42,476 nt of DNA from Escherichia phage forsur, in the sequence record MN850617.1; one strand, 5' to 3'. Positions 1,891-33,849 of this stretch are shown here, piece after piece. Below the pieces are notes generated by a model. The model was not told where the DNA came from, did not search any database, and saw only the letters and a program-made list of their open reading frames with translations. The translations under genes were made by a program, and so were the position numbers. Positions within the stretch are counted from its first letter, which is position 1. Every line of letters starts with the position of its first letter.

Positions 1891-2124
1891 ATGAGCAGAT
1901 ACCAACGAGCCATTGAGGATACCGTGGTCGAGAAAGGTGTGTGCGGGGAGTGCCACGGCTGTGGCACATTCACCAGCATGACCATTCGACACGAGCTTGT
2001 CCAAACTGAATGTGAAGCCTGTGGTGGCACAGGCGTGACTGACCCGGCACTGCAACGTTCAGTGCTGCGGGAACAAGGTATGCGCTGCCAAGTGCAGCCG
2101 GGCTATGACCAACCAACGGAGTAA
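1891..2124 (+). CDS. DnaJ-type zinc-finger protein (77 aa)
   Basis: AGGAG 5 nt upstream of ATG 1891. Two CxxCxGxG motifs (CGECHGCG, CEACGGTG). Confidence 0.65.
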   Translation: MSRYQRAIEDTVVEKGVCGECHGCGTFTSMTIRHELVQTECEACGGTGVTDPALQRSVLREQGMRCQVQPGYDQPTE

Positions 2125-4559
2125 TGATGGACTTACTTGCTGAGCAGATTCGACTGGAAGAAGAAGCGCGAGCCAGACACCGCGAGGGCTGGCTGGATAA
2201 TATCAGAGAGGCGTTGGCCGCTGGCCGGGCTGGTTCAGTACCATTGCTCCAGCGTATGATGGTTGAGGCGTATCCTCAAGTTGAAGCTGCGATGCAAGAA
2301 CTCCTGAATGAAACTGCCCGTGGCTATGGTGCGCAGTACCGGACATACATGCGGGAGCTGGGGCCGCGAGCTTGTGCCTCACTCGCGTTGAGCATGGCTG
2401 TGTCCGGTGCCGCTGCTGAGCAAGCAGTGCTTAACTTGCTCAAGGACATGGGCAAGGCTCTCATGGCTGAGGTGGTGTACCTTCGGGCCAAGGCTGCCGG
2501 GCCTGTGCAGGCTGCGTACATGGCCAAGGTTAAGACTGACGTTAAGCGCTCTCGTTCCAAGTCAGCTAACCATGTGTATAACAAGGCGAAAGCGTCGGCG
2601 TCTAACGTTGGCGTTGAGCTGGATATCCTGCCACAGCGTGCGCTCATCACCATTGGTAAGATGATGATGAAGTGCATCGAGCCTACTGGTCTGCTGGTCA
2701 CTATGCGTGTCGGCGGCAACCACCGTCAGCGCGGCACCGCGCACTTCGCACTGCATGAAGATGTGCTGGCAACGATGAAAGATTGGATGGACTTGCCACG
2801 GGCAGACGGCCTGTGCTGTCCTCCAATGATTATCCCGCCAGCGCAGATTGCACGCGATGGTCGTAGTGGTATGTGGCACTCGCCGGGGCAGGCTGCCATG
2901 TACCGGGCAATCAGCCGCATGAACCACCGTGGCTACCGTGCGCTGGGTGTTGACCCACTGCCCATCATAGAGCCGTGTATGATGCTCAGCAGCGTTCCGT
3001 ACCGAGTTAACCCAATGGTATTGGAGTTCCTGAGAACGAACCGTACAGGCGTTATGGGGCTGCCTGTGCCGCCTCGTGAGCCTAAGCTCCCGTTCACCAT
3101 CCCGGCTGGTGTCAGCTTCGCTCAGTACATTAGCAAGTTCCCACCAGAAATGCAGCAGCAGATGGAGTCGGAAGCCCACGAGTACAAGGTGAAGACCCGT
3201 CTGTATTACAACGAGCTGCGCAAGTTCACGTCACAAATGCTGGCGCTGAACGGTGCAGTCAAAGAGGCCGAGCGCTATGCGCCATACGATAGGGTATATC
3301 TCCCGACTTACGCCGATACGCGGGGCCGAATTTATTATTCTTCGACCCTTAACCCTCAGTCCATCGACGCGGTGCGAGCGCTGCTCGAACTTGCTGAACC
3401 AGTGGCTCTCGGAGACGAGGGGCTGTTCTGGCTCAAGGTACATGTTGCGAATTGTTTTGGATACGACGCCACCGACTTCGACGACCGGGCGGCGTGGACG
3501 GACAAAACACTCCCCCGACTACGTGAGGCGTGCCGTCTTCCAGAGGCATTTGATTCGTTCTGGTCAGAAGCCGATAGCCCTATCTCAGCGTGGGCTGCTG
3601 CTGTTGAACTCATTCGAGCTATCGACTCAGGAAGTCCTGAGACTTATCCCTGCCGAGTGGTTACGCAGTGGGACGCTACATGTTCAGGACTCCAGCACCT
3701 CAGTGCGATGCTACGCGATGAGGTTGGAGGTGCTGCTGTCAATCTTGTCGATAGCGTGGGAAGAAAAGCAGACATATATCTTAAGACGGCAGCAGCGGCG
3801 ATGCAGGCTCTTGAAGAAAGTGAAGCGGCTGCGCCGACGACAATGGGTTCGTGGCTTGTTTCCATCGGCATTGTTCGGGCTATGGCCAAGAAGCCAGTGA
3901 TGACCTACGTGTACGGGGCAACCCGGCACGGCATGGTTGACTACTACTGCCTGTATCTGCGTGAGAACCGGGTCAAGCTGCCGGAGGGTAAGAGCCTGCT
4001 GGAGTGTGCTCAGTTCATTGCTGAGTTTATGTGGGCTGCTATCCCCCGCGTCGTGCCGAAAGCTGCCGAGCTGATGGCATGGTTGCAGGCTATCGCAGTA
4101 GAGGCTGCGAGCATGGGTGAGTACGTGGAGTTCACTGCGCCGTCCGGTCTTCGTGTGGTCAATCTGTATCAGGCCAGCAAAGAGATTGCGCTGAACAACA
4201 TCAACCTCATGGGTATCCACGGCATCAAGCTGCGCGAGTATCTGGATAAGCCAGATGGTCGCAAGTGTGCCGCTGCGATTGCTCCGAATTTTGTACACGC
4301 CATGGATGCCAGTCACATGATGAAGGTTCTGTGGGAGATGTGGAATAACGGGGTATACATGGTATCCATCCACGACTCGTTCGGTGTAGCGGCAGCCCAT
4401 GCTGGGTTACTGCACAAGGTCATCCGTGAAAAGTTTGTGCAGATGTATGAGGAATGTGACCCTATTCAGCAACTTGCGTCAGCATATAACCGTGAAGCTC
4501 CAGCTCGCGGTAATCTGGACATCCAGCTTGTGAAGAAATCAAGCAAGTTCTTCTGCTGA
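2124..4559 (+). CDS. T7-like single-subunit DNA-dependent RNA polymerase (811 aa)
   Basis: KKPVMTYVYGATRHG (motif B-like) and SIHDSFG (motif C catalytic Asp). Size and position (just before the structural genes) fit phiKMV-type phages. Confidence 0.95.
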   Translation: MMDLLAEQIRLEEEARARHREGWLDNIREALAAGRAGSVPLLQRMMVEAYPQVEAAMQELLNETARGYGAQYRTYMRELGPRACASLALSMAVSGAAAEQAVLNLLKDMGKALMAEVVYLRAKAAGPVQAAYMAKVKTDVKRSRSKSANHVYNKAKASASNVGVELDILPQRALITIGKMMMKCIEPTGLLVTMRVGGNHRQRGTAHFALHEDVLATMKDWMDLPRADGLCCPPMIIPPAQIARDGRSGMWHSPGQAAMYRAISRMNHRGYRALGVDPLPIIEPCMMLSSVPYRVNPMVLEFLRTNRTGVMGLPVPPREPKLPFTIPAGVSFAQYISKFPPEMQQQMESEAHEYKVKTRLYYNELRKFTSQMLALNGAVKEAERYAPYDRVYLPTYADTRGRIYYSSTLNPQSIDAVRALLELAEPVALGDEGLFWLKVHVANCFGYDATDFDDRAAWTDKTLPRLREACRLPEAFDSFWSEADSPISAWAAAVELIRAIDSGSPETYPCRVVTQWDATCSGLQHLSAMLRDEVGGAAVNLVDSVGRKADIYLKTAAAAMQALEESEAAAPTTMGSWLVSIGIVRAMAKKPVMTYVYGATRHGMVDYYCLYLRENRVKLPEGKSLLECAQFIAEFMWAAIPRVVPKAAELMAWLQAIAVEAASMGEYVEFTAPSGLRVVNLYQASKEIALNNINLMGIHGIKLREYLDKPDGRKCAAAIAPNFVHAMDASHMMKVLWEMWNNGVYMVSIHDSFGVAAAHAGLLHKVIREKFVQMYEECDPIQQLASAYNREAPARGNLDIQLVKKSSKFFC

Positions 4560-4584: not shown

Positions 4585-4607
4585 TTATGAAAGTGACTAT
4601 AGTGATA
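4585..4607 (+). promoter_or_regulatory. phage-RNAP promoter candidate P1 (TTATGAAAGTGACTATA|GTGATA)
   Basis: 23-nt motif with T7/SP6-like architecture (AT-rich -17..-13, CTATA at -5..-1, G at +1 = 4602). It lies in the gap after the RNAP gene at the head of the late operon. A perfect inverted copy is at 26463..26485 and near copies at 4852 and 33177. Confidence 0.6.
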
Positions 4608-4852: not shown

Positions 4853-4874
4853 AATGAAAGTGACTATTATGGGA
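4852..4874 (+). promoter_or_regulatory. weaker phage-promoter-like copy P2 (AAATGAAAGTGACTATT|ATGGGA)
   Basis: 14-nt identity (ATGAAAGTGACTAT) to P1, but -1/+1 diverge. It overlaps the start of the GNAT gene. Confidence 0.3.
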
Positions 4875-8368: not shown

Positions 8369-9361
8369 ATGGCCGACAACTACTATCAGCCGAATCAGTT
8401 CCGTCCACACTGGGGTGGTGCGAACTCTGATAACGACATTCACCTTGAGGTGTATGACCGTGATGTGCAGACCCAGTTCATCTACAACTCCATCTTCCGC
8501 AGCGGCCTGACCAACTTCAAGTCTGTTGCGAACCAGTCCAACACTTGGCGTGGCGACCGTCTCGGCTCCGTGTCTGTGAAGGGCCGTAAGTCTGGTCAGT
8601 CTCTGGACAACCAGCCAGTTCGCTCTGAGAAGCTGATTGTCACTGTGGATACCGTGTCTTACATCCGTATCCCGATTGACTATCAGGACGACTGGACTGC
8701 GCCGGACTTCCGTGCTGAGCTGACCCGTAACATGGGTACTGCACAGGCGAAAGCGTTCGACCAAGCGCACGTCATCCAGCTCCAGAAGTCTGCTGACTTC
8801 GTTCCTCCGACCTCTCTGGCAGGCGCGTTCAACTCCGGTATCAAGGAGAAAGTAACGCTGACTGGCACCGTGGCTTCTGAGGAAGACGATGCAAGCGCAC
8901 TGGTGCATGGTCACAAGAAAGTCATTGAGGCGTTCATTCGCCGCGACGCCGACCTTGGCCGTCTGGTAACGCTGATTGACCCGGCGTGGTTCAGCATCCT
9001 GCTGGAGCACAAGAAACTGATGAACGTTGAGTTCACTGGTGGTCGTGGTGTGAACGACTTCGCTATGCGTCGTGTTGCTTACGTGAACGGTATCCGTATC
9101 ATCGAGAGCAACGCATTCCCGCAGGCAGCAATCACCAACCACATCCTCGGTGCCGACTTCAACGTCACCGCCGAAGAAATCAAGCGTAAGATGATTATCT
9201 TCGACCCGTCTCTGGCTCTGGTCACTGTCGAAGCCCAACCGCTATTCAACCGCGTGTGGGATGACGAACGTGAACTGACCAACGTTCTGGACAGCTTCCA
9301 CATGTACACCGTGGGTCAGCGTCGTCCTGACGTGGTAGGCGTGGTTACTACCGAAGCCTAA
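8369..9361 (+). CDS. major capsid protein, T7 gp10-like (330 aa)
   Basis: Position and size fit. Block similarity to T7 gp10A as recalled (EKLIVTVDTVSY..DYQDDW vs EKVITIDGLL..DIEDAM; C-terminal YTVGQRRPDVVGVV vs YAMGHGGLRPEAAGAVV). Confidence 0.9.
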   Translation: MADNYYQPNQFRPHWGGANSDNDIHLEVYDRDVQTQFIYNSIFRSGLTNFKSVANQSNTWRGDRLGSVSVKGRKSGQSLDNQPVRSEKLIVTVDTVSYIRIPIDYQDDWTAPDFRAELTRNMGTAQAKAFDQAHVIQLQKSADFVPPTSLAGAFNSGIKEKVTLTGTVASEEDDASALVHGHKKVIEAFIRRDADLGRLVTLIDPAWFSILLEHKKLMNVEFTGGRGVNDFAMRRVAYVNGIRIIESNAFPQAAITNHILGADFNVTAEEIKRKMIIFDPSLALVTVEAQPLFNRVWDDERELTNVLDSFHMYTVGQRRPDVVGVVTTEA

Positions 9362-9371
9362 TGGTAAACTC

Positions 9372-9400
9372 GAAGCCCTTCATTGAGGGGCTTCTATGAT
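9372..9400 (+). terminator. stem-loop terminator candidate after the capsid gene (T7 T-phi analogue by position)
   Basis: GAAGCCC-TTCATTGA-GGGGCTTC hairpin (9372..9394) followed by TATGAT, immediately after the capsid stop. Confidence 0.5.
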
Positions 9401-9427
9401 TATCGTTACTCACCCAAAGGAGGGTGC

Positions 9428-25939: not shown

Positions 25940-26455
25940 ATGCGTGGGCCTCCCTCGACCCGAATGACCGCGCGTACCCCCATGACGTGTGCGCGGATTA
26001 GCCTCGCGACGTGCGCGATATTGCTCGCGTGCGCTGCGCGGCGCGTCAAGAGGATTGCCTGCGTGCGGTATAGCTCGTGCGTGTCGCGTTTCATCGTCTG
26101 CCGTGTGGCGTGCTGTGCGCTGTCCTGCTGGCTGTGCTGTGCGGTGCTGTCCTATGGGGACGCTCTGCGCTGGCTGTGCTGTGCTGCGTGCTGCGCTCGG
26201 TCGGGCGGGTATCTGTCTCTTTTGCCGTGGTACGCTCTGCGCCGTGGTGGTGCTGTGTGGTGGTGGTGCTGCCGTGGTGCTGTCCTGTCTGCTGGTCTAC
26301 TGTCTGCGCCGCCAGCTCTGCGCGTCATGCTCTGCTACCTGCTGCTACTGTCCTACTGCGTTCACTGGCTGCCGCCTGTCATCCTGTCGGATTCCATCCG
26401 TTGCCGTTCCGCGCTCGCTTGTTTCGGCTGCGCCGCGCTCGCTCTGCGTATCTAG
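25940..26455. repeat. GC-rich, A-depleted (+ strand) low-complexity tract with short degenerate direct repeats; probable location of the collapsed terminal repeat / concatemer junction
   Basis: By hand count there are about 15 A in 26101..26450, with A-free runs of 53, 50 and 66 nt. Recurring GCTGTGCTGTGC, GGTGCTGTCCTG, GCCGTGGT and CGCTCTGCGC units. Confidence 0.7.
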
Positions 26456-26462
26456 CGATACA

Positions 26463-26485
26463 TATCACTATAGTCACTTTCATAA
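26463..26485 (-). promoter_or_regulatory. phage-RNAP promoter candidate P3, inverted (leftward) perfect copy of P1
   Basis: The reverse complement of 26463..26485 equals TTATGAAAGTGACTATAGTGATA, identical to 4585..4607. Predicted +1 is the G complementary to 26468, transcribing toward 25940. Confidence 0.5.
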
Positions 26486-26622
26486 TTATCTATTGATATC
26501 AGTAACTTATAACCTATCTGATAACGGTATCTATCCTATGCAATAACCTATTCAATCAAATATTTATTCCTAATGATTACAGTAACTTATCCACTATTTG
26601 AGCTATTCAGTGAAAATAAATC

Positions 26623-26651
26623 TTGCAATGCTGTTTGTGATTTGCTGTAAT
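26623..26651 (+). promoter_or_regulatory. sigma70 early promoter candidate PE0
   Basis: TTGCAA (26623-26628), 17-nt spacer, extended -10 TGcTGTAAT (TGTAAT at 26646-26651). Confidence 0.55.
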
Positions 26652-26726
26652 TCTCATCGCCGGGTAGCAGAACATCGCTACACGGTGGCAAGACGGTAAC
26701 ACTGCTCTTTAACAATCTGGAGTGTA

Positions 26727-26755
26727 TTGACAAGGCAAGCTCACTATGCTGTAAT
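26727..26755 (+). promoter_or_regulatory. sigma70 early promoter PE1
   Basis: Consensus TTGACA (26727-26732), 17-nt spacer, extended -10 TGcTGTAAT (26750-26755). Confidence 0.8.
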
Positions 26756-26863
26756 GCTTCCAGTCAGCCAGACAAGCCAAACAGTCATGGATAAAGACGT
26801 TAAAACCCGCGCAGGCTAACTGGTACGGATTATTCATCTCAGAATGGGCGCTGAATAAAACGG

Positions 26864-26892
26864 TTGACAGGATGAAACGAGTATGCTGTAAT
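26864..26892 (+). promoter_or_regulatory. sigma70 early promoter PE2
   Basis: TTGACA (26864-26869), 17-nt spacer, TGcTGTAAT (26887-26892). Confidence 0.8.
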
Positions 26893-26944
26893 ACGCTCCA
26901 GATTGACAGGGCAAGCAAGCCTGACAGTCAGTAGTAAAAAGTAG

Positions 26945-26973
26945 TTGACAAGCTGAATACACTGTGTTGTAAT
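26945..26973 (+). promoter_or_regulatory. sigma70 early promoter PE3
   Basis: TTGACA (26945-26950), 17-nt spacer, TGtTGTAAT (26968-26973). Confidence 0.8.
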
Positions 26974-27451
26974 CAGCACCGAGTTGGAAGGATGCAAAAC
27001 ATCCTGCTCTGAGTGAACGCAAACTGGCCGCGTAGTGTCACGGCTCACTGGGTATCCGCCGCAGGTTGGAACTGGGTGAGGCATCGCCGAAAGGCAACGG
27101 TATCGCAACAATGCTAACGCCGTAGGGGTAGCGCCTGATGCAAGGTAACGGAGAAGCGCGATAGACGCAGCGCAGTATCAGTACAATACCAAACGTCTTA
27201 TAAGGCGCGGAGTATAGCGGGTAGGTAGTCAAACGGCTTGTTAGCTGGCAACGGTGAGCAAGATACGCGACGGACTGCTGGAAGACTCCTGAGAGTGGAT
27301 GCAGACAATATCCACAGCGCGAAATGGGCGGGGCGATTTTTCAGGGTAGTGAATCCGACAAGCCAATCAATGCCACTGAGTGCAGACTGTACGGCGCGTC
27401 ACAATGGGTTCACTATCCACCTGAAAATAGCCAACAACTGGAGAAATAACT

Positions 27452-27844
27452 ATGTACCGTATCTATGCAAGCGCATATCGTCAGAACAACGCTGAGTGTG
27501 TTAATCTGGCGCTTCATTGCAAGGCACTGCGAACGGTGCAGGATATGTTCGGAGTGATTCCGGTCACACTGACAGGCAAGTTCGACAATGCGTATGAGTT
27601 AAGCATGGTCTTTCCTGTCGATGGAATCTACGAAATCAGACAGGCTGTTAAGCTGTTCTGTAAAGCCTTTGAACAGGACTGCATCATGGTAGTGACCGAT
27701 GACAATGATGCAATCTTCATGGATTCACCATATCCGGGCAAGCCTGCTGGCAAGTTTGTCAGCAAGACAGAAGCGGAGATGGAAGCCGGGCAGTTCACTG
27801 CTTGGACTTACGATGGTGAGCAATTTTGGGTAGTGGAGGCGTAA
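27452..27844 (+). CDS. first early protein, T3 gp0.3-like SAM hydrolase/lyase candidate (130 aa)
   Basis: GGAG upstream. Block resemblance to T3 SAMase as I recall it (ASAYRQNNAECVNL.. vs VSAFRSNLCDEVNM..; FCKAFEQDCIMVV vs ACNEWEQDCVLVY). Occupies the first early gene position. Confidence 0.5.
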   Translation: MYRIYASAYRQNNAECVNLALHCKALRTVQDMFGVIPVTLTGKFDNAYELSMVFPVDGIYEIRQAVKLFCKAFEQDCIMVVTDDNDAIFMDSPYPGKPAGKFVSKTEAEMEAGQFTAWTYDGEQFWVVEA

Positions 27845-27845
27845 T

Positions 27846-27917
27846 ATGTTCACTGCACTCTGTGTGATAGCGGCGGCGTGCTGGCTGATTGACCAGCGCC
27901 TGTCTAAGCGAGCCTGA
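27846..27917 (+). CDS. micro-ORF, 23-aa hydrophobic peptide
   Basis: Strong GGAGG 6 nt upstream. MFTALCVIAAACWLIDQRLSKRA. Confidence 0.4.
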   Translation: MFTALCVIAAACWLIDQRLSKRA

Positions 27918-27918
27918 T

Positions 27919-28002
27919 ATGTGGGACTTACTGGTAGCGTTGTTCTGGTTTGTCTTTGCAGGCTTGTGGATTTACTGGTTGACTCGTCCCAAATTATGGT
28001 GA
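27919..28002 (+). CDS. micro-ORF, 27-aa hydrophobic peptide
   Basis: ATG 1 nt after the previous stop. MWDLLVALFWFVFAGLWIYWLTRPKLW (single TMD). Confidence 0.4.
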   Translation: MWDLLVALFWFVFAGLWIYWLTRPKLW

Positions 28003-28008
28003 CTGCCT

Positions 28009-28030
28009 AATGCGTCTTGCGAGGCGCATT
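28009..28030 (+). repeat. intergenic stem-loop, UUGCGA-loop family (copy 1; no GGCAAT box)
   Basis: AATGCGTC-TTGCGA-GGCGCATT, 8-bp stem. Confidence 0.7.
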
Positions 28031-28066
28031 GTGAAGTAACCAACCAACAACCCGACGAGGTGTATC

Positions 28067-28594
28067 ATGACTACTGTTAAATATACTGCATTCAAAGATG
28101 CTGCGGCGCTGGACAAAGCTATCGAAGCGACTGTCAAAAAGGCGCACTCACTCCGTAACGATATTCAGAATGTTGCGGTCGGTATTATCCTGCACGCTTA
28201 CCATCACGGCGACTACACTCGTGCTGAGTCGTTCACTCACCAACTGGGTGATGGCGTCCGTGGTAAGGCACTGGTTGACTGGTTCGTCCAGTTCGGCGGC
28301 CTGATTGTGGGTGAGCATGAAGATGGCAAGTCCGGCTTCGTTGGCTGGAAGGGTGCCGACTTCATCAAAGAGAACATCGACAAGGCGAAAGCCACGATGT
28401 GGTGGACTTGCAAGCCAGAAGCGGCCTTTGATGGCTTCGACCTGCAAGATGCGCTCGAAAAGCTGATTGCCAAAGCTGAAAAGGCAATGAACAAGGCGAA
28501 CGAGCTGCGCCACGAAGGGCGCGATGAGGATGCGAACAAGGTTGTCGTGCCTCAGAACGTGCTGGACGGCCTGCGCAAGCTGAAAGCTGCGTAA
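28067..28594 (+). CDS. hypothetical early protein (175 aa)
   Basis: GAGG upstream. Helical and Lys/Ala-rich, with no recognisable motif. Confidence 0.7.
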   Translation: MTTVKYTAFKDAAALDKAIEATVKKAHSLRNDIQNVAVGIILHAYHHGDYTRAESFTHQLGDGVRGKALVDWFVQFGGLIVGEHEDGKSGFVGWKGADFIKENIDKAKATMWWTCKPEAAFDGFDLQDALEKLIAKAEKAMNKANELRHEGRDEDANKVVVPQNVLDGLRKLKAA

Positions 28595-28607
28595 GCGGGA
28601 TTGACTC

Positions 28608-28644
28608 AAGCCATCTTGCGAGGTGGCTTTATGGCAATTCTGCC
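28608..28644 (+). repeat. intergenic stem-loop (UUGCGA loop) plus GGCAATTCTGCC box (copy 2)
   Basis: AAGCCATC-TTGCGA-GGTGGCTT. The box starts 11 nt after the loop. Confidence 0.7.
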
Positions 28645-28667
28645 CCAACAATTACGGAGTATCATCC

Positions 28668-28952
28668 ATGACCACTAAAACTGTTCTGGCCTACGTCACC
28701 AAGAAAGGCGAAGAAGTGTACGGCTATGCTGTGTCTATCGACGGCGGCCACAACTACCTGCATCACGTTCGTGAAGAAGGTGAACCGACTGACCACGATG
28801 GCATTCTGGAAACGCTGAAAGGCATCCCGCTGCCGCACGAAATCATCTGTATGCTGGCTGGCCAGACGGAAGATGACCTGCAACTGCGTCACGGCGACGA
28901 CCTGACCATTCAGGGTATCGGCAGCTTCGAAGCTGACGTAGACGACGAATAA
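28668..28952 (+). CDS. acidic early protein ending ..GSFEADVDDE (94 aa)
   Basis: Start trimmed to ATG 28668 (ACGGAG upstream). The track's start at 28623 lies inside the conserved hairpin/box element. Confidence 0.65.
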   Translation: MTTKTVLAYVTKKGEEVYGYAVSIDGGHNYLHHVREEGEPTDHDGILETLKGIPLPHEIICMLAGQTEDDLQLRHGDDLTIQGIGSFEADVDDE

Positions 28953-28963
28953 GCGTTGTCCTG

Positions 28964-29000
28964 CTGCATCCTTGCGAGGGTGCAGCGTGGCAATACTGCC
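28964..29000 (+). repeat. intergenic stem-loop (UUGCGA loop) plus GGCAATACTGCC box (copy 3)
   Basis: CTGCATCC-TTGCGA-GGGTGCAG. The box starts 11 nt after the loop. Confidence 0.7.
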
Positions 29001-29025
29001 TTATTCCAATCTGAGGATTAATCCT

Positions 29026-29106
29026 ATGTCTACACTGAAACTGGTACTGATTTCTAACATCGCTGCTGACGCTTTCGACGCTGATGACGTGGACTTCTCT
29101 GCGTGA
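29026..29106 (+). CDS. 26-aa acidic mini-ORF (MSTLKLVLISNIAADAFDADDVDFSA), resembling the C-terminal tail of the neighbouring paralogs
   Basis: TGAGGA upstream. Preceded by the same hairpin/box element as the full-length genes. Confidence 0.4.
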   Translation: MSTLKLVLISNIAADAFDADDVDFSA

Positions 29107-29112
29107 TACCTT

Positions 29113-29150
29113 ACTGCCTCGTTGCGACGGGGCAGTGCGGCAATCATGCC
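29113..29150 (+). repeat. intergenic stem-loop (UUGCGA loop) plus GGCAATCATGCC box (copy 4)
   Basis: ACTGCCTCG-TTGCGA-CGGGGCAGT. The box starts 11 nt after the loop. Confidence 0.7.
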
Positions 29151-29171
29151 CAACCTAACTGGAGATTTACC

Positions 29172-29453
29172 ATGGCTACAATCAACGTGTATTCCCTGAG
29201 CAACGGCGGTCTGGCATTCATCGCTGGTGATAAGGTAGACGAAGCGCCGTCGCTGGGCGTGACGCCGAAACCGGAGGCCAGCCGTGATGATGTTATCGCG
29301 GAAGTCAAGGGTGCGCTGGAAGACCTCGGCGGTCTGCTGTTCGTCCTGAATGGTGGCAAGCTGTCGGTTGAAAAGCTGGACGCGCTGGAACCTGTCTTTG
29401 TTGAGAGCTTCGAAGCTGACAACATCGACCTCGCTGCTTTCGCTGACGCCTAA
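29172..29453 (+). CDS. acidic early protein, paralog A (93 aa, MATINVY.. ..ESFEADNIDLAAFADA)
   Basis: Start trimmed to ATG 29172 (TGGAGA upstream). Clear paralog of 29791..30099. Confidence 0.75.
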   Translation: MATINVYSLSNGGLAFIAGDKVDEAPSLGVTPKPEASRDDVIAEVKGALEDLGGLLFVLNGGKLSVEKLDALEPVFVESFEADNIDLAAFADA

Positions 29454-29491
29454 GCATAACCCGAAACCCACAACCAAAGAGGACAATCAAC

Positions 29492-29722
29492 ATGGCTAAG
29501 TTTGAACTGGTACGCTTCATTGACCCGAACGATGGCGAAGAAACCTTCGCGCAGTTTGCTGATGACCGCTCGCTGGTCGCCATCTACAACACTGAGCGCA
29601 CGGCGCGGCGCTGGTTCAAGGAAGACGACGACATGGACAGCATCGAAGAAGCGCTGGCTATGCCGGGCTACGCTGAGGCTGTCGAGGCAGCACTGAAAGG
29701 CGAAGTCGTAGCGACTGCGTGA
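29492..29722 (+). CDS. acidic early protein (76 aa)
   Basis: AAGAGGA upstream. Confidence 0.65.
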   Translation: MAKFELVRFIDPNDGEETFAQFADDRSLVAIYNTERTARRWFKEDDDMDSIEEALAMPGYAEAVEAALKGEVVATA

Positions 29723-29729
29723 TTTCTGT

Positions 29730-29768
29730 CAGCCCATCCATAGCGGTGGGCTGTAGGGCAATCATGCC
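29730..29768 (+). repeat. intergenic stem-loop (CAUAGC loop) plus GGCAATCATGCC box (copy 5)
   Basis: CAGCCCATC-CATAGC-GGTGGGCTG. The box starts 12 nt after the loop. Confidence 0.65.
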
Positions 29769-29790
29769 ACAACAACTGAGGGTATACACC

Positions 29791-30099
29791 ATGGCAACTA
29801 TCAACGTCTACAAAACTATCACTGGCTCACTGGTATTCGTAGTGGGTGAACTGCGTGAAGATGCACCAATCGTTGGCGTGTCTCTGCGTGAAGGGGCAAC
29901 CGAGGCTGACGCCATCGCTGAGATTCGTCAGAACATTGAGAACCTCGGCGGCCTGTTCTTCCTGCTGCAAGGTGGCAGCCTGAACCTCGCTAAGTTGCAG
30001 GAGCATGAGCCTGTACTCGTGACCAGCTTCGAAGCGGAAGATGTAGACGCCAGTGACTTCGAAGCCAGCCGCGCTGACGAAGAAGAAGCAGGCGAGTAA
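29791..30099 (+). CDS. acidic early protein, paralog B (102 aa, MATINVY.. ..TSFEAEDVDASDFEASRADEEEAGE)
   Basis: Start trimmed to ATG 29791 (TGAGGG upstream). Aligns along its full length with 29172..29453. Confidence 0.75.
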   Translation: MATINVYKTITGSLVFVVGELREDAPIVGVSLREGATEADAIAEIRQNIENLGGLFFLLQGGSLNLAKLQEHEPVLVTSFEAEDVDASDFEASRADEEEAGE

Positions 30100-30212
30100 T
30101 GAGCGCCATCGAGGTGGCACTGATGTTGGGCTGTCATGCAGGTATTGGCAGCCTCGTCATCTACATCGTTGGCGCGGCACGCAAATCATACGATAGGAGA
30201 ACCAAGCTATGA
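30099..30212 (+). CDS. micro-ORF, 37-aa membrane peptide
   Basis: TAATG overlap with the upstream stop. One TMD (GIGSLVIYIVGAA) followed by a basic tail. Confidence 0.4.
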   Translation: MSAIEVALMLGCHAGIGSLVIYIVGAARKSYDRRTKL

Positions 30213-30385
30213 AGTTTGCAGTATCGCGCAGCGGTGCAAGCCATGCGGCACACAAGTTGCACTTCCTGTTCCACTCGCTGTACCTTACAGCGGCTGCGAT
30301 GGAGGGTCACTTGTTCTATAGCCTCATGGCTGGCGGCACCTTACTGTTCATGGTTGGCACGGCGGTGCTGGGCAATGAACATTAA
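30209..30385 (+). CDS. small membrane protein (58 aa)
   Basis: AGGAGA about 9 nt upstream, ATGA overlap. Below the ORF-track cutoff. Preferred over the track's 30136 and 30216 frames, which lack an RBS. Confidence 0.45.
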   Translation: MKFAVSRSGASHAAHKLHFLFHSLYLTAAAMEGHLFYSLMAGGTLLFMVGTAVLGNEH

Positions 30386-30548
30386 TCTGTTACAACGGGT
30401 CAAGGGTATGGAGCGTCGGCACTGGGAGACGGCCATCATCCTTAAGGTAAGCATAAGCGCTGGACTGGCTGCTGCTTATTTCCTGCCAACCACCGCAGCA
30501 ATAGCCGTTGGTATCAGCACCAACCTGCTATGGTTGTGGAAGTTGTAA
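30375..30548 (+). CDS. small membrane protein (57 aa)
   Basis: Internal ATG of track ORF 30216..30548. Two hydrophobic segments. The upstream part of the track ORF is Cys/Arg-rich, out-of-frame-looking sequence. Confidence 0.45.
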   Translation: MNINLLQRVKGMERRHWETAIILKVSISAGLAAAYFLPTTAAIAVGISTNLLWLWKL

Positions 30549-30562
30549 GCAGTGGATTACTC

Positions 30563-30589
30563 AAGGCTGTCCAGCGGGTAGCCTTTTTG
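30563..30589 (+). terminator. rho-independent terminator candidate within the early region
   Basis: AAGGCT-(11-nt loop)-AGCCTT followed by a TTTTT run (30584-30588). Confidence 0.5.
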
Positions 30590-30612
30590 AAATCCATTGA
30601 CGAGAGGGGAGC

Positions 30613-30951
30613 ATGGCACTACATCGAGTGAAGGTAATGCGTGGGCCTGACTTCGAAGACGGGCAAGAGATTGCTGCATTGCAGTACCGCTTGCCGTCCG
30701 GTCAGGAGGGGCTGGTCATCATTGACCAGATTGAAATCATGGGTGAGCACATGCTGATTGCTGATGCCACCGATGAGCAAATCATTGAGCGCTGCAAGGC
30801 ATACGCCGGGGGCAGACCGTTCATCATCGACCTGATGAATGACCAGCACATCAATGCTGATGGTTCGCTGCTGTTCAAGGCATGGCTTTATGCTCTCACA
30901 ACAATCTACGAAGGGGAGATGTATCTCTTTGGCGTAGACAACGAGGGTTAA
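30613..30951 (+). CDS. hypothetical early protein (112 aa)
   Basis: GAGAGGGGAG upstream. Confidence 0.7.
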   Translation: MALHRVKVMRGPDFEDGQEIAALQYRLPSGQEGLVIIDQIEIMGEHMLIADATDEQIIERCKAYAGGRPFIIDLMNDQHINADGSLLFKAWLYALTTIYEGEMYLFGVDNEG

Positions 30952-30954
30952 ATC

Positions 30955-31269
30955 ATGAAGGTAAGCAAAGGATATCTGTTCGTGCTGTTGATGCTGGCCA
31001 CCCTGTATCTCAGCACCGTGCATGTGGCACTGGCAGCCACTGTGGAGAAGGTGCATTTGGATGCGTATGACGTACCGCTGGGCGCACCTGATGGACAGGT
31101 GTACTCTGCTTGCGTCATTGACCTACGCAAAGGCGGCACTGTCAGCACACTGGCCTACGTTGGTGAGTGTGAGGATGTGCTGCCACACCTGAAAGAAAAG
31201 CTGGAGCATGATGGCGTGACCACCATCGTGACTCTCTCAATCAACGGTCATAACATCAACCTAACGTGA
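30955..31269 (+). CDS. secreted/periplasmic early protein (104 aa)
   Basis: N-terminal signal peptide MKVSKGYLFVLLMLATLYLSTVHVALA|AT. GAGGG upstream. Confidence 0.7.
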   Translation: MKVSKGYLFVLLMLATLYLSTVHVALAATVEKVHLDAYDVPLGAPDGQVYSACVIDLRKGGTVSTLAYVGECEDVLPHLKEKLEHDGVTTIVTLSINGHNINLT

Positions 31270-31277
31270 GGTTTTAT

Positions 31278-31529
31278 ATGAGCACTCAAGCTAAGATTGT
31301 AATTCTGCGCAACGACTATGGCCGTCCTACTCCGTTCGGCACCTTCTGTCCGTTCCTCGATACCATTGAGGGTAAAGAGTACGATGTACTCATCCTTGAG
31401 CCGGGCGAAGTGGACGCCGAAGGGGATGAAGTTGACAAGCGCTCGGTCAGTTTCCGCGATGAAGTGGGTGACTTAGCTGGCGCACACATTGACTACCATG
31501 AAGGTAAGTCATTCAAGTTCGTCGAGTAA
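31278..31529 (+). CDS. hypothetical acidic early protein (83 aa)
   Basis: Start trimmed to ATG 31278 (GAGG 6 nt upstream). Confidence 0.65.
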   Translation: MSTQAKIVILRNDYGRPTPFGTFCPFLDTIEGKEYDVLILEPGEVDAEGDEVDKRSVSFRDEVGDLAGAHIDYHEGKSFKFVE

Positions 31530-31535
31530 TAATCT

Positions 31536-31571
31536 ACAGCCTCTGCTTGCTGGGGCTGTGTCACTATCAAA
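31536..31571 (+). repeat. intergenic stem-loop plus GTGTCACTATCAAA box (second family, copy 1)
   Basis: ACAGCCTC-(8-nt loop)-GGGGCTGT, then a box shared with 31840..31876. Confidence 0.6.
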
Positions 31572-31587
31572 TAAACGAGAGGCAAAC

Positions 31588-31833
31588 ATGGCTAAGTATG
31601 ACGTATACAAAGACGGTGAGGGTGACTGGACTATCGTACCGGAAGGGCAGCAGATTGTAGCCCCGGTCGATGTGATTGCAATGAACGGCGCGGCGGCTGA
31701 GACACTGGCTGATGTGCAGCGCATCGCAACCACCAAGCGTGCAGGCTTCGAAGCTAACCGCACGCATGTCAAGTCGCAGGCTGTCATCAATCGCTTCGGC
31801 CCGTATGAACTGGCCGGGACTATTGAAGTGTGA
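31588..31833 (+). CDS. hypothetical early protein (81 aa)
   Basis: Start trimmed to ATG 31588 (GAGAGG upstream). Confidence 0.65.
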   Translation: MAKYDVYKDGEGDWTIVPEGQQIVAPVDVIAMNGAAAETLADVQRIATTKRAGFEANRTHVKSQAVINRFGPYELAGTIEV

Positions 31834-31839
31834 TAAGCT

Positions 31840-31876
31840 ACTGCCCCTGCGTGCCGGGGGCAGTGTCATTATCAAA
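31840..31876 (+). repeat. intergenic stem-loop plus GTGTCATTATCAAA box (second family, copy 2)
   Basis: ACTGCCCCT-(7-nt loop)-GGGGGCAGT, then the box. Confidence 0.6.
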
Positions 31877-31890
31877 CGATGGAGGTGGGT

Positions 31891-32175
31891 ATGGTACTGG
31901 CATCTGAATCAATCATTGAACACGCTGCTGATATCCGGGCGGCGGTTGAAAAGCGCGGGGTCGCAGCTACCCGTGGTCATCTCTCTGGCAACGGTGGCCT
32001 GCGTGGTCACAGCGTAGGCGGTGTGTTTCCCTGCGTTATCTTTGCTCGTGGCAATCCTAATGTGAAGCTCGACTGGTGCTTCCTCACACCAGCGGGTGAT
32101 GAGTTCGATGGCTTCATTAGTTATGAGGATGCGTATGCAGCCGCGCAGGAATGGCTGGAGAAAAGAGAGGTGTAA
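31891..32175 (+). CDS. hypothetical early protein (94 aa)
   Basis: Start set at the second ATG, 31891 (GGAGGTGGGT upstream). Confidence 0.6.
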   Translation: MVLASESIIEHAADIRAAVEKRGVAATRGHLSGNGGLRGHSVGGVFPCVIFARGNPNVKLDWCFLTPAGDEFDGFISYEDAYAAAQEWLEKREV

Positions 32176-32176
32176 C

Positions 32177-32470
32177 ATGAGCAGAAGTGCTAAGTGGGAT
32201 GCGCTGGTACAGTGGGTGAAGGATAGCTTCGGGCCACCGCCTACCCCTGACCACGATGACTCGCCGTTCCAATACGTCGAGAAGAAAACGCAGGAGCTTA
32301 AGCTGGGCGACTACGTTGTAGCATACGGTGGATACATCCAGCGCATCGGTGCCGTTGAATATGATGGCAGCCGACTGGTTGTAACCAAGCTGGGGCATGG
32401 CCCTGAACGTGAATGGCAGGCGTTTGAAGACGACGAGTTCACAATCCGCACACTGAAAGAAGGAAAGTAA
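32177..32470 (+). CDS. hypothetical early protein (97 aa)
   Basis: Start trimmed to ATG 32177 (GAGAGG upstream). Confidence 0.65.
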   Translation: MSRSAKWDALVQWVKDSFGPPPTPDHDDSPFQYVEKKTQELKLGDYVVAYGGYIQRIGAVEYDGSRLVVTKLGHGPEREWQAFEDDEFTIRTLKEGK

Positions 32471-32472
32471 TC

Positions 32473-32988
32473 ATGGCTATTGACTTTAAATTATTCAACG
32501 CCGAGCAACTTGAAACTGTCAAGTCTCTGGCTGAGTTCATCGACAACCACCCGGAGCTGAGCGAACTGGTTGAGTTCAAGGGTGGCTACCTGCCGAAGCA
32601 AAGTTACATCGGCGCGGTGCGTAAAGGTCGTGAAGGTATGCTGGATATTATTCCGCAGACCAGAACCGGGGCGCTGCTGGCACGCAACGTCAGCGTGCTG
32701 ATTGGCATGAACGTGAAGCGTGCCAGTGAGCAGGGCAATGCGGCTGAGGTTGAGACGCTGCGCCTGACAGGTACGCTCGCAGCTAAGGCCATGTCGGAAC
32801 CGGACATTGCCGAGCGCTATCATGACTGGTACATGGCGTGCGCTAATGTGCCAAGCGATATCAGTGAGACGACGCTGGGCCTGCTGTTCGTAGGTGAGTT
32901 CATCGACGCAACCATCCGTGCAGTCAGCGGTCAGGTGGGTGAATTAATTCAGGCAATGCAGCAGGCCAAGAATGCAACACGTCACTAA
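32473..32988 (+). CDS. hypothetical early protein (171 aa)
   Basis: ORF-track ORF, tightly packed with its neighbours. Confidence 0.7.
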   Translation: MAIDFKLFNAEQLETVKSLAEFIDNHPELSELVEFKGGYLPKQSYIGAVRKGREGMLDIIPQTRTGALLARNVSVLIGMNVKRASEQGNAAEVETLRLTGTLAAKAMSEPDIAERYHDWYMACANVPSDISETTLGLLFVGEFIDATIRAVSGQVGELIQAMQQAKNATRH

Positions 32989-33142
32989 GCTCACCGTAAC
33001 CAAATCACCCACCGGATTATTCTGGTGGGTAGTTGATAAGCTGCAACCAAATAAACCTTTGGCTGTGCGTGATACAAAGTGGGAAGCCGAGAGTAAACTC
33101 GAAGACCTTCAACGTATTATGCGGAATGTTATTCCAGCTTAG
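32972..33142 (+). CDS. possible small protein (56 aa)
   Basis: Below the track cutoff, with only a weak RBS. It fills the gap before P4. An internal 9-bp hairpin (33007..33030) could instead be a regulatory stem-loop. Confidence 0.35.
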   Translation: MQHVTKLTVTKSPTGLFWWVVDKLQPNKPLAVRDTKWEAESKLEDLQRIMRNVIPA

Positions 33143-33176
33143 CCATCTACTCATGCCAGTTATTATTTAGCTGGCA

Positions 33177-33199
33177 TTATGAAGGTGACTATATTGGAC
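33177..33199 (+). promoter_or_regulatory. phage-RNAP promoter candidate P4 (TTATGAAGGTGACTATA|TTGGAC)
   Basis: 16 of 17 identity to P1 over -17..-1. Intergenic, at the head of the replication module. Directly preceded by the hairpin ATGCCAG-(11 nt)-CTGGCAT (33153..33177). Confidence 0.55.
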
Positions 33200-33213
33200 A
33201 ACCCGGAGGAAAT

Positions 33214-33381
33214 ATGTTTCGTGTATTAATGTTATTCGTACTCGTCGTTATATTGTGGGGCGCGTTATGGGTAGGCGTTGCCTATTTAATTCAGCCTTAC
33301 ATTGGCGAACAGCTTACCTCTGTAATTGGTACGCTGCTTGGGCTTTGTTGTTGGCGCAGTTGGTATGTCCAAGTGCATTGA
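33214..33381 (+). CDS. small membrane protein (55 aa)
   Basis: GGAGGA 4 nt upstream. Two hydrophobic segments. Below the track cutoff. Confidence 0.55.
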   Translation: MFRVLMLFVLVVILWGALWVGVAYLIQPYIGEQLTSVIGTLLGLCCWRSWYVQVH

Positions 33382-33408
33382 CATTGGCTGGAGTAAGGGG
33401 TGGATTAA

Positions 33409-33849
33409 ATGGTAAAGCCAAAGTACAAAGTCGGGGATGAAATCGTGGGCGACGATGGCACTGGCACCCGGTCGGGTAAGCTGGGTATCATCGCATGGGT
33501 TAACCCTGACCGCCGAGCGTGGGAACGCAGCGGGGAAACTCGTTACATCGTGAGCTGGATTGGCGAGCGCTTGAATGCGCAGCCGGATATCAGCCACTAC
33601 AAATCTGACTGGCTGGAGGACAACACCAGTCTGGTCAGTACCCCGGCGCAGAAGCGCGGTCGGTTCATGTGTCTGCTTGAGGGCGGCAGCACGCCGCCGA
33701 AGATTGAACACATCACTGAACGTGAAGCGCGTGATGAAGCTGAGCGTCTGGCAGAACGCCACGGTGGTACTGTCCGTGTGCTGCAAGTTGTGGCCAGCGT
33801 GAAGATGAAGAAGAAGATTCAGTACATACCGGACTGGGATAACGAATGA
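33409..33849 (+). CDS. hypothetical protein (146 aa)
   Basis: AAGGGG upstream. Confidence 0.7.
   Translation: MVKPKYKVGDEIVGDDGTGTRSGKLGIIAWVNPDRRAWERSGETRYIVSWIGERLNAQPDISHYKSDWLEDNTSLVSTPAQKRGRFMCLLEGGSTPPKIEHITEREARDEAERLAERHGGTVRVLQVVASVKMKKKIQYIPDWDNE

What the first reader, a model, noticed from the sequence alone, without database searches (positions are those of the whole stretch)
28009..29768. Family of covarying intergenic hairpins with an invariant UUGCGA hexaloop and a GGCAATNNTGCC box at a fixed 11-nt offset
Seen in sequence: there are five elements, each starting within about 20 nt of a stop codon and ending about 20-35 nt before the next start codon.

Four have 8-9-bp stems with completely different sequences but preserved pairing, including the U-G/C-G pairs next to the loop, and the same loop TTGCGA (28017, 28616, 28972, 29122). 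The fifth (29730) keeps a 9-bp stem and a 6-nt loop (CATAGC).

In copies 2-4, GGCAAT-NN-TGCC begins exactly 11 nt after the loop, and 12 nt after it in copy 5. The box is itself a small inverted repeat (GGCA..TGCC).

Inference: stem covariation with loop invariance argues for a functional RNA or DNA structure recognised through its loop. The stems are too short for classical RNase III sites, there is no U-tract as in intrinsic terminators, and the box spacing does not fit sigma70 or sigma54.

Candidate roles are a boxB/nut-like antitermination or protein-binding hairpin (host RNAP must read about 17 kb to reach the RNAP gene), a processing or stability element, or a mobile regulatory cassette promoting shuffling of early genes, as PeSL elements do in T4-type phages.
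Basis: partly seen in the sequence, partly recalled or inferred. Interest (0 to 1): 0.72.

Follow-up and report, generated by a model that had tools for sequence, protein, structure and literature searches.

The report
T7-type RNase III processing hairpins
The repeated hairpin-plus-box elements between the early genes of this T7-related coliphage are most likely RNase III cutting sites of the kind long known in phages T7 and T3, where the "box" is the far strand of a second, lower stem; the finding is real but ordinary.

Summary
There are five sense-strand intercistronic hairpins. Four have TTGCGA at the tip, and four are followed by an exact GGCAATNNTGCC box (0.14 expected by chance).

The interpretation needs revising in three ways.
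1. TTGCGA is a UGCG (UNCG-class) tetraloop closed by a U-A pair. It is not invariant: orthologous hairpins in related phages carry UACG, CAAG, CACG, CUCG, AAC or AAU.
2. The box is the 3' strand of a lower stem. It pairs with 5'-GCGnnAT(T) at the end of the upstream gene, and its two "N" positions covary with that partner.
3. Each element is therefore an 18-20 bp two-tier hairpin, the architecture of T7/T3 early RNase III sites.

A covariance model built only from ten T7/T3 RNase III sites gives five hits (E ≤ 10) in the whole 42 kb window. All five lie on intercistronic hairpins. They include box copy 2 (E=0.0014), where the box aligns to the model's lower-stem 3' strand.

By analogy with T7, cleavage is predicted 12 nt 3' of the loop, at the 5' edge of the box. 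Cleavage itself has not been shown.

The window is a Bonnellvirus genome (Autographiviridae). Verdict: a new member of a known kind, of low to moderate interest.

The parts
27997..28042 (+). Element 1: two-tier hairpin without the box. Upper stem 28008-28031, UGCG loop 28018-28021, short interrupted lower stem.
   Evidence: MFE -19.5 kcal/mol, z -3.72. Orthologs carry UACG or UGCG loops and compensatory stem changes. It was not a significant hit to the T7/T3 model.
28595..28644 (+). Element 2: two-tier hairpin. Lower stem 28595-28603 pairs with 28635-28643; upper stem 28608-28629; UGCG loop 28617-28620. The box at 28633-28644 is the 3' strand of the lower stem. Predicted RNase III cut between 28632 and 28633.
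   Evidence: Fold (z -4.0). T7/T3 RNase III covariance model: 24.6 bits, E=0.0014, spanning exactly 28595-28644. It shares the T7 R0.3/R0.5/R1.1 motif ACTCAAG-N-CTTTATG.
28952..29000 (+). Element 3: upper stem 28962-28987 with UGCG loop. Box 28989-29000, of which GGCAAT pairs with GUUGUC at 28955-28960. Predicted cut between 28988 and 28989.
   Evidence: z -3.96. Orthologs in HHU8 and L011 have box NN=AA paired to upstream UU, and a remodelled upper stem with an AAC or AAU loop.
29101..29150 (+). Element 4: lower stem GCGUGAU (29101-29107) pairs with AUCAUGC (29143-29149); CC/GG middle pairs; upper stem 29112-29137 with UGCG loop; box 29139-29150. Predicted cut between 29138 and 29139.
   Evidence: z -4.43, MFE frequency 0.68. 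Covariation.
29717..29768 (+). Element 5: lower stem 29717-29727 pairs with 29756-29767; upper stem 29730-29753 with CAUAGC loop; box 29757-29768. Predicted cut between 29756 and 29757.
   Evidence: z -5.78. Weak hit to the T7/T3 model (12.6 bits, E=2). The ortholog in LF82-23, Lidtsur and L011 has three compensatory pair changes, CAGCCCATC/GGTGGGCTG to CTGCCCTTG/CGAGGGCAG; the LIMEzero ortholog is a further variant, CTGCCCATG/CGTGGGCAG.
30550..30600 (+). A further site of the same kind without the box: two-tier hairpin CAGUGGAUU.../...AAAUCCAUUG.
   Evidence: Best hit of the T7/T3 RNase III model in the window (36.1 bits, E=1.4e-6). nhmmer with a profile of four T7 sites gives E=0.0044.
31823..31877 (+). 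Two-tier intercistronic hairpin. Its upper stem 31839-31865 resembles element 4, and its lower stem is UGAUAAG/AUUAUCA. A sister hairpin lies at 31535-31560.
   Evidence: Hit of the box-family model R1 (16.6 bits, E=0.015).
33140..33192 (+). Two-tier hairpin before the replication genes. Its 3' side overlaps the putative phage-RNAP promoter at 33179-33196.
   Evidence: T7/T3 model 16.4 bits, E=0.19. Promoter motif. The positional equivalent in LIMEzero is annotated as a terminator followed by a phage promoter.
9359..9409 (+). RNase III-like two-tier hairpin after the major capsid gene, in a late transcript.
   Evidence: T7/T3 model 30.1 bits, E=5.3e-5. The 3' flank UAUGAUUAUC is identical to that of T7 R0.5.

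Best explanation
The elements are T7-type RNase III processing signals in the polycistronic early mRNA that host RNA polymerase makes from the promoter cluster at about 26.6-27.0 kb.

Each element is one irregular hairpin of about 18-20 bp. It has three parts:
- an upper stem of 9-11 bp, capped in four of the five copies by a UGCG (UNCG-class) tetraloop;
- a short internal loop or bulge;
- a lower stem, whose 5' strand (GCGnnAT(T)) overlaps the end or stop codon of the upstream gene and whose 3' strand is the 'box' (box positions A5 to C11).

Host RNase III is predicted to cut once, on the 3' side, 12 nt after the loop. That is immediately 5' of box G1, the same geometry as T7 R0.3 and R1.

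After the cut, the upstream cistron ends in the upper hairpin, which protects it from 3' exonucleases. The downstream cistron starts at the box, followed by a CA-rich leader and the Shine-Dalgarno sequence.

Shown here: the structure, its covariation, its strand specificity, and its homology to T7/T3 sites. Inferred: actual cleavage, the exact cut position, and the stabilising effect.
For: Context: the window is a circularly permuted Bonnellvirus genome (Autographiviridae), 97.7% identical to phage glasur over the aligned 92% of the 6 kb query. The elements lie 1.5-3.3 kb into the early region, downstream of four TTGACA/TTGCAA-N17-TGTAAT promoters.

Structure: MFE folds of all five elements, and of 30 unique relatives, give the two-tier hairpin with the box as the lower-stem 3' strand.

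Covariation:
- 89.9% of cells are paired, against 38-45% when the partner columns are slid.
- The covariation score is 0.371 against 0.101 for shuffles (0 of 500 shuffles reach it).
- The two box 'N' columns covary with their upstream partners: UA 14, GC 7, CG 1 at one pair; GC 13, GU 6, AU 1, UA 1 at the other.
- In LIMEzero, T9 to C9 converts a G.U pair into G-C.

Strand: 52 of 53 box matches across relatives are sense-strand, intergenic and hairpin-associated. G.U pairs are frequent. The sense strand folds 5-10 kcal/mol better than the antisense strand.

Homology:
- T3 sites annotated as 'RNase III recognition site' fold into the same two-tier shape, as do the T7 sites.
- A covariance model built only from those 10 sites gives 5 hits (E ≤ 10) in 42 kb on both strands. 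All are sense-strand intercistronic hairpins, including element 2 at E=0.0014, with the box aligned to the model's 3' lower strand.
- The same model finds sense-strand hits in several of the related phages searched.
- The motif ACTCAAG-N16-30-CTTTATG occurs at T7 R0.3, R0.5 and R1.1 and once in the window, at element 2. No shuffle produced a match.
- T7 R1 itself carries a UGCG loop.

Literature:
- E. coli RNase III substrates typically have two helical turns. Internal loops restrict cutting to one strand, and the resulting 3' hairpin protects the RNA (PMC1540722, PMC3867540).
- T7 early mRNA has five such signals.
Against: - No cleavage data exist for this phage or its genus.
- Only element 2 reaches significance against the T7/T3 model. 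Element 5 is marginal (E=2), and elements 1, 3 and 4 are not hit. Their assignment rests on shared architecture and on sharing the box with element 2.
- In window element 3 the lower stem has a U-C mismatch at one N position, and the MFE of a longer segment prefers another pairing.
- The box positions GGC, AAT and GCC are far more conserved than base pairing alone requires.
- In three unique variants the box lies outside a complete two-tier hairpin. The box may therefore have a further role, or simply be inherited with the downstream gene.
- The T7 cut positions (890, 1468, 3138, 5887, 6448) are from my memory of Dunn & Studier 1983. They are corroborated only by their consistent register with the shared motif.
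Confidence: 0.75

Rival explanations
1. The hairpins are passive intercistronic stabiliser or decay-barrier structures, like REP elements or the T4 UUCG hairpins. They are not cut by RNase III. They block 3' exonucleases after cleavage by RNase E or another nuclease in the unstructured CA-rich leader. The box is conserved only as a pairing partner or by common descent.
For: - Stable tetraloops and strong sense-specific folding.
- No direct cleavage evidence.
- Elements 1, 3 and 4 are not hit by the T7/T3 model.
Against: - A simple barrier does not need a lower stem that includes the upstream stop codon, nor a constant 12-nt distance from loop to box.
- Element 2 and three other hairpins in the window match experimentally known RNase III sites in both sequence and structure.
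Confidence: 0.12
2. The box is an independent sequence-specific site: an operator for a phage or host protein, or a promoter-like or pause element whose AATNNT core resembles a -10 hexamer. It coordinately regulates the paralogous early genes that follow it. The hairpin is a separate element.
For: - GGCAAT and GCC are invariant across Bonnellvirus, LIMEzero and L013, while the stems change.
- The box is retained 12 nt beyond a complete two-tier hairpin in J8-65, Lidtsur and LIMEzero.
- It stays with the homologous downstream gene.
- It lies 19-26 nt before start codons.
- LIMEzero's annotated 'phage specific promoters' contain GGCAAT/GGCAAG.
Against: - The N positions covary with the upstream strand.
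- No -35 element lies at a workable spacing, and the promoter scan finds nothing on the + strand.
- This phage's RNAP promoter motif is different: ATGAARGTGACTATAKTG, 4 copies against 0.02 expected.
- The sigma-54 spacing is too short, as read directly from the sequence.
- The T7/T3 model aligns the box to the lower-stem strand.
Confidence: 0.08
3. The hairpins are nut/boxB-like or put-like antitermination elements that make host RNA polymerase processive over the roughly 18 kb to the phage RNAP gene.
For: - Host RNAP must indeed transcribe a long distance.
- The hairpins lie in the early transcript.
Against: - Loops are not conserved among orthologs.
- No boxA lies next to the hairpins.
- There are five or more copies between cistrons rather than one promoter-proximal site.
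- A separate exact rrn-type boxA sits about 50 nt downstream of the first promoter, at 26703, and is the better antitermination candidate.
Confidence: 0.03

Closest known systems
Phage T7 and T3 early RNase III processing signals (R0.3, R0.5, R1, R1.1, R1.3)
   Same: - Sense-strand intercistronic position in the host-RNAP early operon of an Autographiviridae coliphage.
- Two-tier hairpin: a 9-11 bp upper stem with a tetraloop (T7 R1 has UGCG), an internal loop, and a 5-9 bp lower stem.
- Element 2 shares ACUCAAG...CUUUAUG with T7 R0.3, R0.5 and R1.1.
- The T7 cut lies 12-13 nt 3' of the loop, which corresponds to the 5' edge of the box.
   Different: - The 3' lower strand here is a clade-specific, highly conserved GGCAATNN(T/C)GCC rather than the AU-rich GAUUAUCAC-type strand.
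- There are more copies, about ten two-tier hairpins in the early region against five in T7.
- Several copies have diverged beyond recognition by the T7/T3 model.
- Cleavage has not been demonstrated.
Extra-stable UNCG/GNRA tetraloop hairpins in phage intercistronic regions (T4 C(UUCG)G hairpins; from my own knowledge, Tuerk et al. 1988)
   Same: UNCG-type loops (UGCG, UACG) cap G+C-rich intercistronic stems. The loop contributes stability rather than specificity.
   Different: The elements here have an additional covarying lower stem and show homology to RNase III sites.
Lambda nut sites (boxA + boxB)
   Same: An RNA hairpin in an early phage transcript.
   Different: - No conserved loop.
- No adjacent boxA.
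- Many copies between cistrons.
- The exact boxA in this genome is elsewhere, at 26703.
T4 PeSL (promoter-early stem-loop) cassettes
   Same: Repeated stem-loop-containing intergenic modules flank small, variable early genes. The box and leader appear to move with the downstream gene.
   Different: No sigma-70 promoter is associated with the hairpins. The conserved part is a helix strand, not a promoter.

Membership tests
T7/T3-type RNase III processing signal | Lies between cistrons on the sense strand of a polycistronic phage mRNA | tested here: met
   ORF map and sequence. 52 of 53 box matches in relatives are sense-strand and intergenic. Early promoters lie upstream.
T7/T3-type RNase III processing signal | About two helical turns of irregular duplex: upper stem, internal loop or bulge, lower stem | tested here: met
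   Folds give 18-20 bp for elements 1-5, against 18-21 bp for the T7/T3 sites. Both helices are supported by covariation.
T7/T3-type RNase III processing signal | Detectable sequence and structure homology to established sites | tested here: inconclusive
   Covariance model built from 10 T7/T3 sites: element 2 E=0.0014, element 5 E=2, elements 1, 3 and 4 not hit. Other hairpins in the window score E=1.4e-6 and 5.3e-5. The T7 motif ACTCAAG..CTTTATG is present only in element 2.
T7/T3-type RNase III processing signal | Single cut by host RNase III on the 3' side of the internal loop, leaving a 3' hairpin | not testable with these tools
   Needs an rnc+/rnc- comparison of RNA ends, or in vitro cleavage. 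Predicted positions are 28632/3, 28988/9, 29138/9 and 29756/7.
Lambda-type nut site | Conserved boxB loop sequence read by an N-type protein | tested here: not met
   Orthologous hairpins carry UGCG, UACG, CAAG, CACG, CUCG, UAAG, AAC, AAU or UCU loops.
Lambda-type nut site | boxA element next to the hairpin | tested here: not met
   A search for TGCTCTTTAACAA with up to 3 mismatches finds nothing between 27 and 30 kb. The only exact copy is at 26703.
Intrinsic (rho-independent) terminator | G+C-rich hairpin followed directly by a U-tract | tested here: not met
   The terminator scan lists none of the five hairpins. The stems are followed by UAUGGC, UGGC, CGGC or UAGGGC.
T4 PeSL cassette | Sigma-70 early promoter coupled to the stem-loop | tested here: not met
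   No + strand promoter-like site in 26300-33500. TTGCGA to AATNNT spacing is 14 nt, read from the sequence.
Phage single-subunit RNAP promoter | Match to the genome's own repeated promoter consensus | tested here: not met
   The SP6-like motif ATGAARGTGACTATAKTG occurs 4 times against 0.02 expected, at positions typical of such promoters (after the RNAP gene and before the replication genes). It does not resemble the box.

The most novel reading that the evidence does not exclude
The box may have two functions. Before processing it is the 3' strand of the RNase III lower stem. After a cut exactly at its 5' edge, it refolds into a flush 5'-terminal GGCA(NNNN)UGCC mini-hairpin. That hairpin would shield the released downstream mRNA from 5'-end-dependent RNase E decay.

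On this reading, box + CA-rich leader + gene forms a portable expression cassette that has been shuffled among Bonnellvirus and Waewaevirus genomes. This would explain why GGCA and UGCC are self-complementary and nearly invariant, and why the box persists next to a complete foreign two-tier hairpin in J8-65, Lidtsur and LIMEzero.
Probability: 0.2. Interest if true: 0.5.

Novelty: new member of a known kind. Interest (0 to 1): 0.3.

Why it matters
RNase III processing of early mRNA is textbook for T7 and T3. None of the Bonnellvirus or LIMEzero records or papers I examined annotates or mentions it.

Recognising these elements would:
- give correct transcript-unit boundaries for about ten small early genes of unknown function;
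- extend the T7-type processing signal to a clade whose RNAP gene sits late, as in phiKMV;
- provide a set of naturally diverged, compact RNase III sites that could serve as insulators in synthetic operons, as T7 R0.5 and R1.1 already do (PMC3643576).

It does not open a new biological question.

Tried and rejected
- Sigma-70 promoter (TTGCGA as -35, AATNNT as -10): the spacing is 14 nt, the loop is not conserved, and the scan is negative.
- Sigma-54, sigma-28, sigma-32 and sigma-E: I compared consensus and spacing by eye from the sequence, and none fits.
- Phage RNAP promoter: rejected after finding the separate SP6-like motif. LIMEzero's annotated phage promoters do share GGCAAT.
- ops/RfaH-like non-template-strand hairpin, or a hairpin-stabilised pause: considered (note). 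Dropped once the box's N positions were seen to covary with the upstream strand.
- Rfam: no family matches in 26300-33500 except one chance hit at E=0.48.
- Box-family covariance model R1 against T7: only weak hits. The best is at R0.5 (9.5 bits, E=1.3), because the box sequence dominates the model.
- Literature: the LIMElight/LIMEzero paper (PMC3126476) is not held. A search for 'RNase III' with 'phiKMV' found nothing relevant.
Full report
**What the window is.** A 6 kb segment around the finding is 97.7% identical (over the aligned 92% of the query) to Escherichia phage glasur and 98.2% (over 82%) to usur. Both belong to genus Bonnellvirus, family Autographiviridae, relatives of LIMEzero and J8-65. 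The window is a circularly permuted whole genome.
- The glasur left end maps to about 26464.
- The single-subunit RNAP gene is at 2124-4559.
- Length (42,476 bp) and GC content (55.4%) equal those listed for phage forsur in Olsen et al. 2020.
- Four strong promoter-like sites (TTGACA/TTGCAA-N17-TGTAAT, each preceded by TGn) lie at 26622-26975.
- The finding sits 1.5-3.3 kb downstream of them, in the operon of small early genes.

**Checking the observation.** All five hairpins are at the stated coordinates.
- The box GGCAATNNTGCC matches exactly four times, all on the + strand and all in this region. Shuffles give 0.14 expected.
- The offsets of 11, 11, 11 and 12 nt are correct.
- Two details are wrong. 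TTGCGA closes through a U-A pair, leaving a UGCG tetraloop on stems of 9-11 bp.
- The loop is invariant only within this genome. Orthologous hairpins in usur, HHU8, RZ4, LF82-23, J8-65, Lidtsur, L011, L013 and LIMEzero carry CAAG, CACG, CUCG, TAAG, AAC, AAT, TACG, TCT or CATAGT, often with a remodelled stem apex.
- UGCG and UACG belong to the UNCG class of extra-stable tetraloops (my own knowledge). The loop therefore reads as a stability feature, not a recognition site.

**What the box is.** I collected every GGCAATNN[TC]GCC match in the window and 20 related loci.
- 52 of 53 matches are sense-strand, intergenic and preceded by a hairpin. The one exception is a coding-region hit on the opposite strand.
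- Folding 64-nt segments shows that the box is not free-standing. Box positions A5 to C11 pair with 5'-GCGnnAT(T)-3', which lies just 5' of the hairpin and usually includes the upstream stop codon (for example GCG UGA UU). Box G1G2 pair with CC/GCC next to the upper stem.
- The two 'N' positions covary with their partners: CA with UG in most copies, AG with CU in L013, UA with UA in LIMEzero and L013, UC or CC with GG in the element-2 class, and AA with UU in HHU8 and L011. In LIMEzero, T9 to C9 turns a G.U pair into G-C.
- On a 25-sequence alignment the two-helix structure is 89.9% paired, against 38-45% when partner columns are slid. The covariation score is 0.371 against 0.101 for shuffles, and 0 of 500 shuffles reach it.
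- Frequent G.U pairs and a 5-10 kcal/mol advantage for the sense strand place the structure in the transcript.
- Each element is thus one irregular hairpin of about 18-20 bp: lower stem, internal loop or bulge, upper stem, tetraloop.

**Comparison with T7 and T3.** This is the architecture of the RNase III processing signals of T7-group early mRNA.
- The T3 RefSeq record annotates five 'RNase III recognition site' stem-loops. They and the five T7 sites fold into the same two-tier shape.
- The similarity extends to sequence. T7 R0.3, R0.5 and R1.1 share ACUCAAG(G)...(C)CUUUAUG. The pattern ACTCAAG-N16-30-CTTTATG occurs once in the window, at element 2, and in no shuffle. It occurs three times in the T7 early region, at exactly those three sites.
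- T7 R1 has the loop UGCG on a stem nearly identical to a J8-65 hairpin.

**An independent test.** I built a covariance model from the ten T7/T3 sites only and searched the whole window on both strands with filters off.
- It returned five hits at E ≤ 10. All are sense-strand intercistronic hairpins.

| Hit | Location | E-value |
|---|---|---|
| 30550-30600 | early hairpin without box | 1.4e-6 |
| 9359-9409 | after the capsid gene | 5.3e-5 |
| 28595-28644 | element 2 | 0.0014 |
| 33140-33192 | before the replication genes | 0.19 |
| 29717-29768 | element 5 | 2 |

- In the element-2 alignment, the box aligns to the model's 3' lower-stem strand (GAuUaaCauUca).
- The model also finds sense-strand hits in several of the related phages searched.
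- Elements 1, 3 and 4 are not hit. I assign them through the shared architecture and, for 3 and 4, the shared box. E-values from this model are rough.

**Mechanism.**
- Published work shows that E. coli RNase III substrates typically span two helical turns. Internal loops or bulges restrict cutting to one strand. The resulting 3' hairpin protects the processed RNA (PMC1540722 and PMC3867540).
- T7 early mRNA carries five such signals. R0.5 and R1.1 work as portable processing sites (PMC3643576).
- T7 cut positions as I remember them from Dunn & Studier 1983 fall 12-13 nt 3' of the loop, after the UAU of CCUUUAU/G. All three motif matches in T7 end exactly one base past those positions, which supports the recollection.
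- Applying the same geometry here puts the cut 12 nt after the loop in every element. In elements 2-5 that is immediately 5' of box G1.
- Inferred consequences: upstream cistrons end in the protective upper hairpin, and downstream cistrons begin with the box, a CA-rich leader and the Shine-Dalgarno sequence.

**Why the elements repeat.** The genes that follow the boxes are paralogous small acidic proteins. The pair at 29172 and 29791 is clearly related, and 28668 and glasur gene 4 are more distantly related. The elements were therefore probably duplicated together with their genes and then diverged while keeping the pairing.

In J8-65 and Lidtsur, the box GGCAATAATGCC sits 12 nt beyond a complete two-tier hairpin of a different class. 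It is still followed by a homolog (47% identity) of the gene that follows the same box in LF82-23. The box and leader thus travel with the downstream gene.

This behaviour, together with the near-invariance of GGCA/UGCC, leaves room for a second role, such as a 5'-terminal mini-hairpin on the processed mRNA. Against that idea, the LIMEzero U9-to-C9 change weakens the mini-hairpin while strengthening the lower stem.

**Alternatives rejected.**
- Intrinsic terminators: no U-tract.
- Sigma-70 promoter or PeSL cassette: no promoter-like site, and the spacing is wrong.
- Phage RNAP promoter: this genome has a distinct SP6-like motif, ATGAARGTGACTATAKTG, at 4587, 4854, 33179 and, on the minus strand, 26466. 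That is 4 copies against 0.02 expected.
- nut/boxB: loops are not conserved and no boxA is adjacent.
- Rfam has no matching family.

**Verdict.** It is best explained as T7-type RNase III processing sites in a Bonnellvirus early operon. These sites are not annotated in any of the records or papers I examined. This is a new member of a known kind, of modest interest. Cleavage itself remains to be shown.

Noticed in passing
window 26703-26715 (+): An exact rrn-type boxA (TGCTCTTTAACAA) lies about 50 nt downstream of the first early promoter. It is identical in glasur, usur, ROV85, HHU8, LF82-23 and L011. An exact 13-mer is expected about 0.001 times in the window by chance. It suggests Nus-factor (rRNA-type) antitermination of host RNAP on the long early/middle transcript. 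LIMEzero annotates the similar CGCTCTTTATACAATCTGG region as a promoter.
   Followed up: partly
window 4587-4604 (+), 4854-4871 (+), 33179-33196 (+), 26466-26483 (-): An SP6-like motif, ATGAARGTGACTATAKTG (4 copies against 0.02 expected), is probably the phage RNAP promoter. One copy lies on the minus strand at the very left end of the genome, pointing outward. None of the examined Bonnellvirus records annotates this motif.
   Followed up: partly
window 26622-26975 (+): Four early promoter-like repeats have the form TTGACA/TTGCAA-N17-TGTAAT, each preceded by TGn. As I parsed them, the -10 hexamer has G at position 2 where consensus has A, so the scanning tool does not list them.
   Followed up: no
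window 9359-9409 (+): The hairpin after the major capsid gene matches the T7/T3 RNase III-site model (E=5.3e-5) and carries UAUGAUUAUC, identical to the 3' flank of T7 R0.5. LIMEzero annotates a terminator just after its own capsid gene. No U-tract follows the stem here.
   Followed up: partly
window 29026-29106 (+): This 26-aa ORF is an in-frame internal deletion of the 112-aa glasur gene 4. The N-terminal MSTLKLVLISNIAADAFDADDV and the C-terminal DFSA are retained.
   Followed up: yes
window 28668-30099 (+): The small early genes that follow the boxes form a paralogous family of acidic proteins, with MATINVY... N-termini and SFEAD..D.F.A C-termini. Their function is unknown, and I ran no family search on them.
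   Followed up: partly
window 26985-27451 (+): A roughly 470-nt untranslated leader lies between the promoter cluster and the SAM hydrolase gene. It is only moderately structured (z about -2.3 against mononucleotide shuffles). ROV85 annotates a minus-strand ORF in this region.
   Followed up: no
L014 7732-7755 and 10424-10450; L015 3548-3571 and 5847-5873: More distant relatives (41-48% protein identity) have intercistronic hairpins with different conserved flanks: uuugccc, then the hairpin, then caacaagcg or caucaagcg. These may be the same kind of two-tier site with another lower-stem sequence.
   Followed up: no
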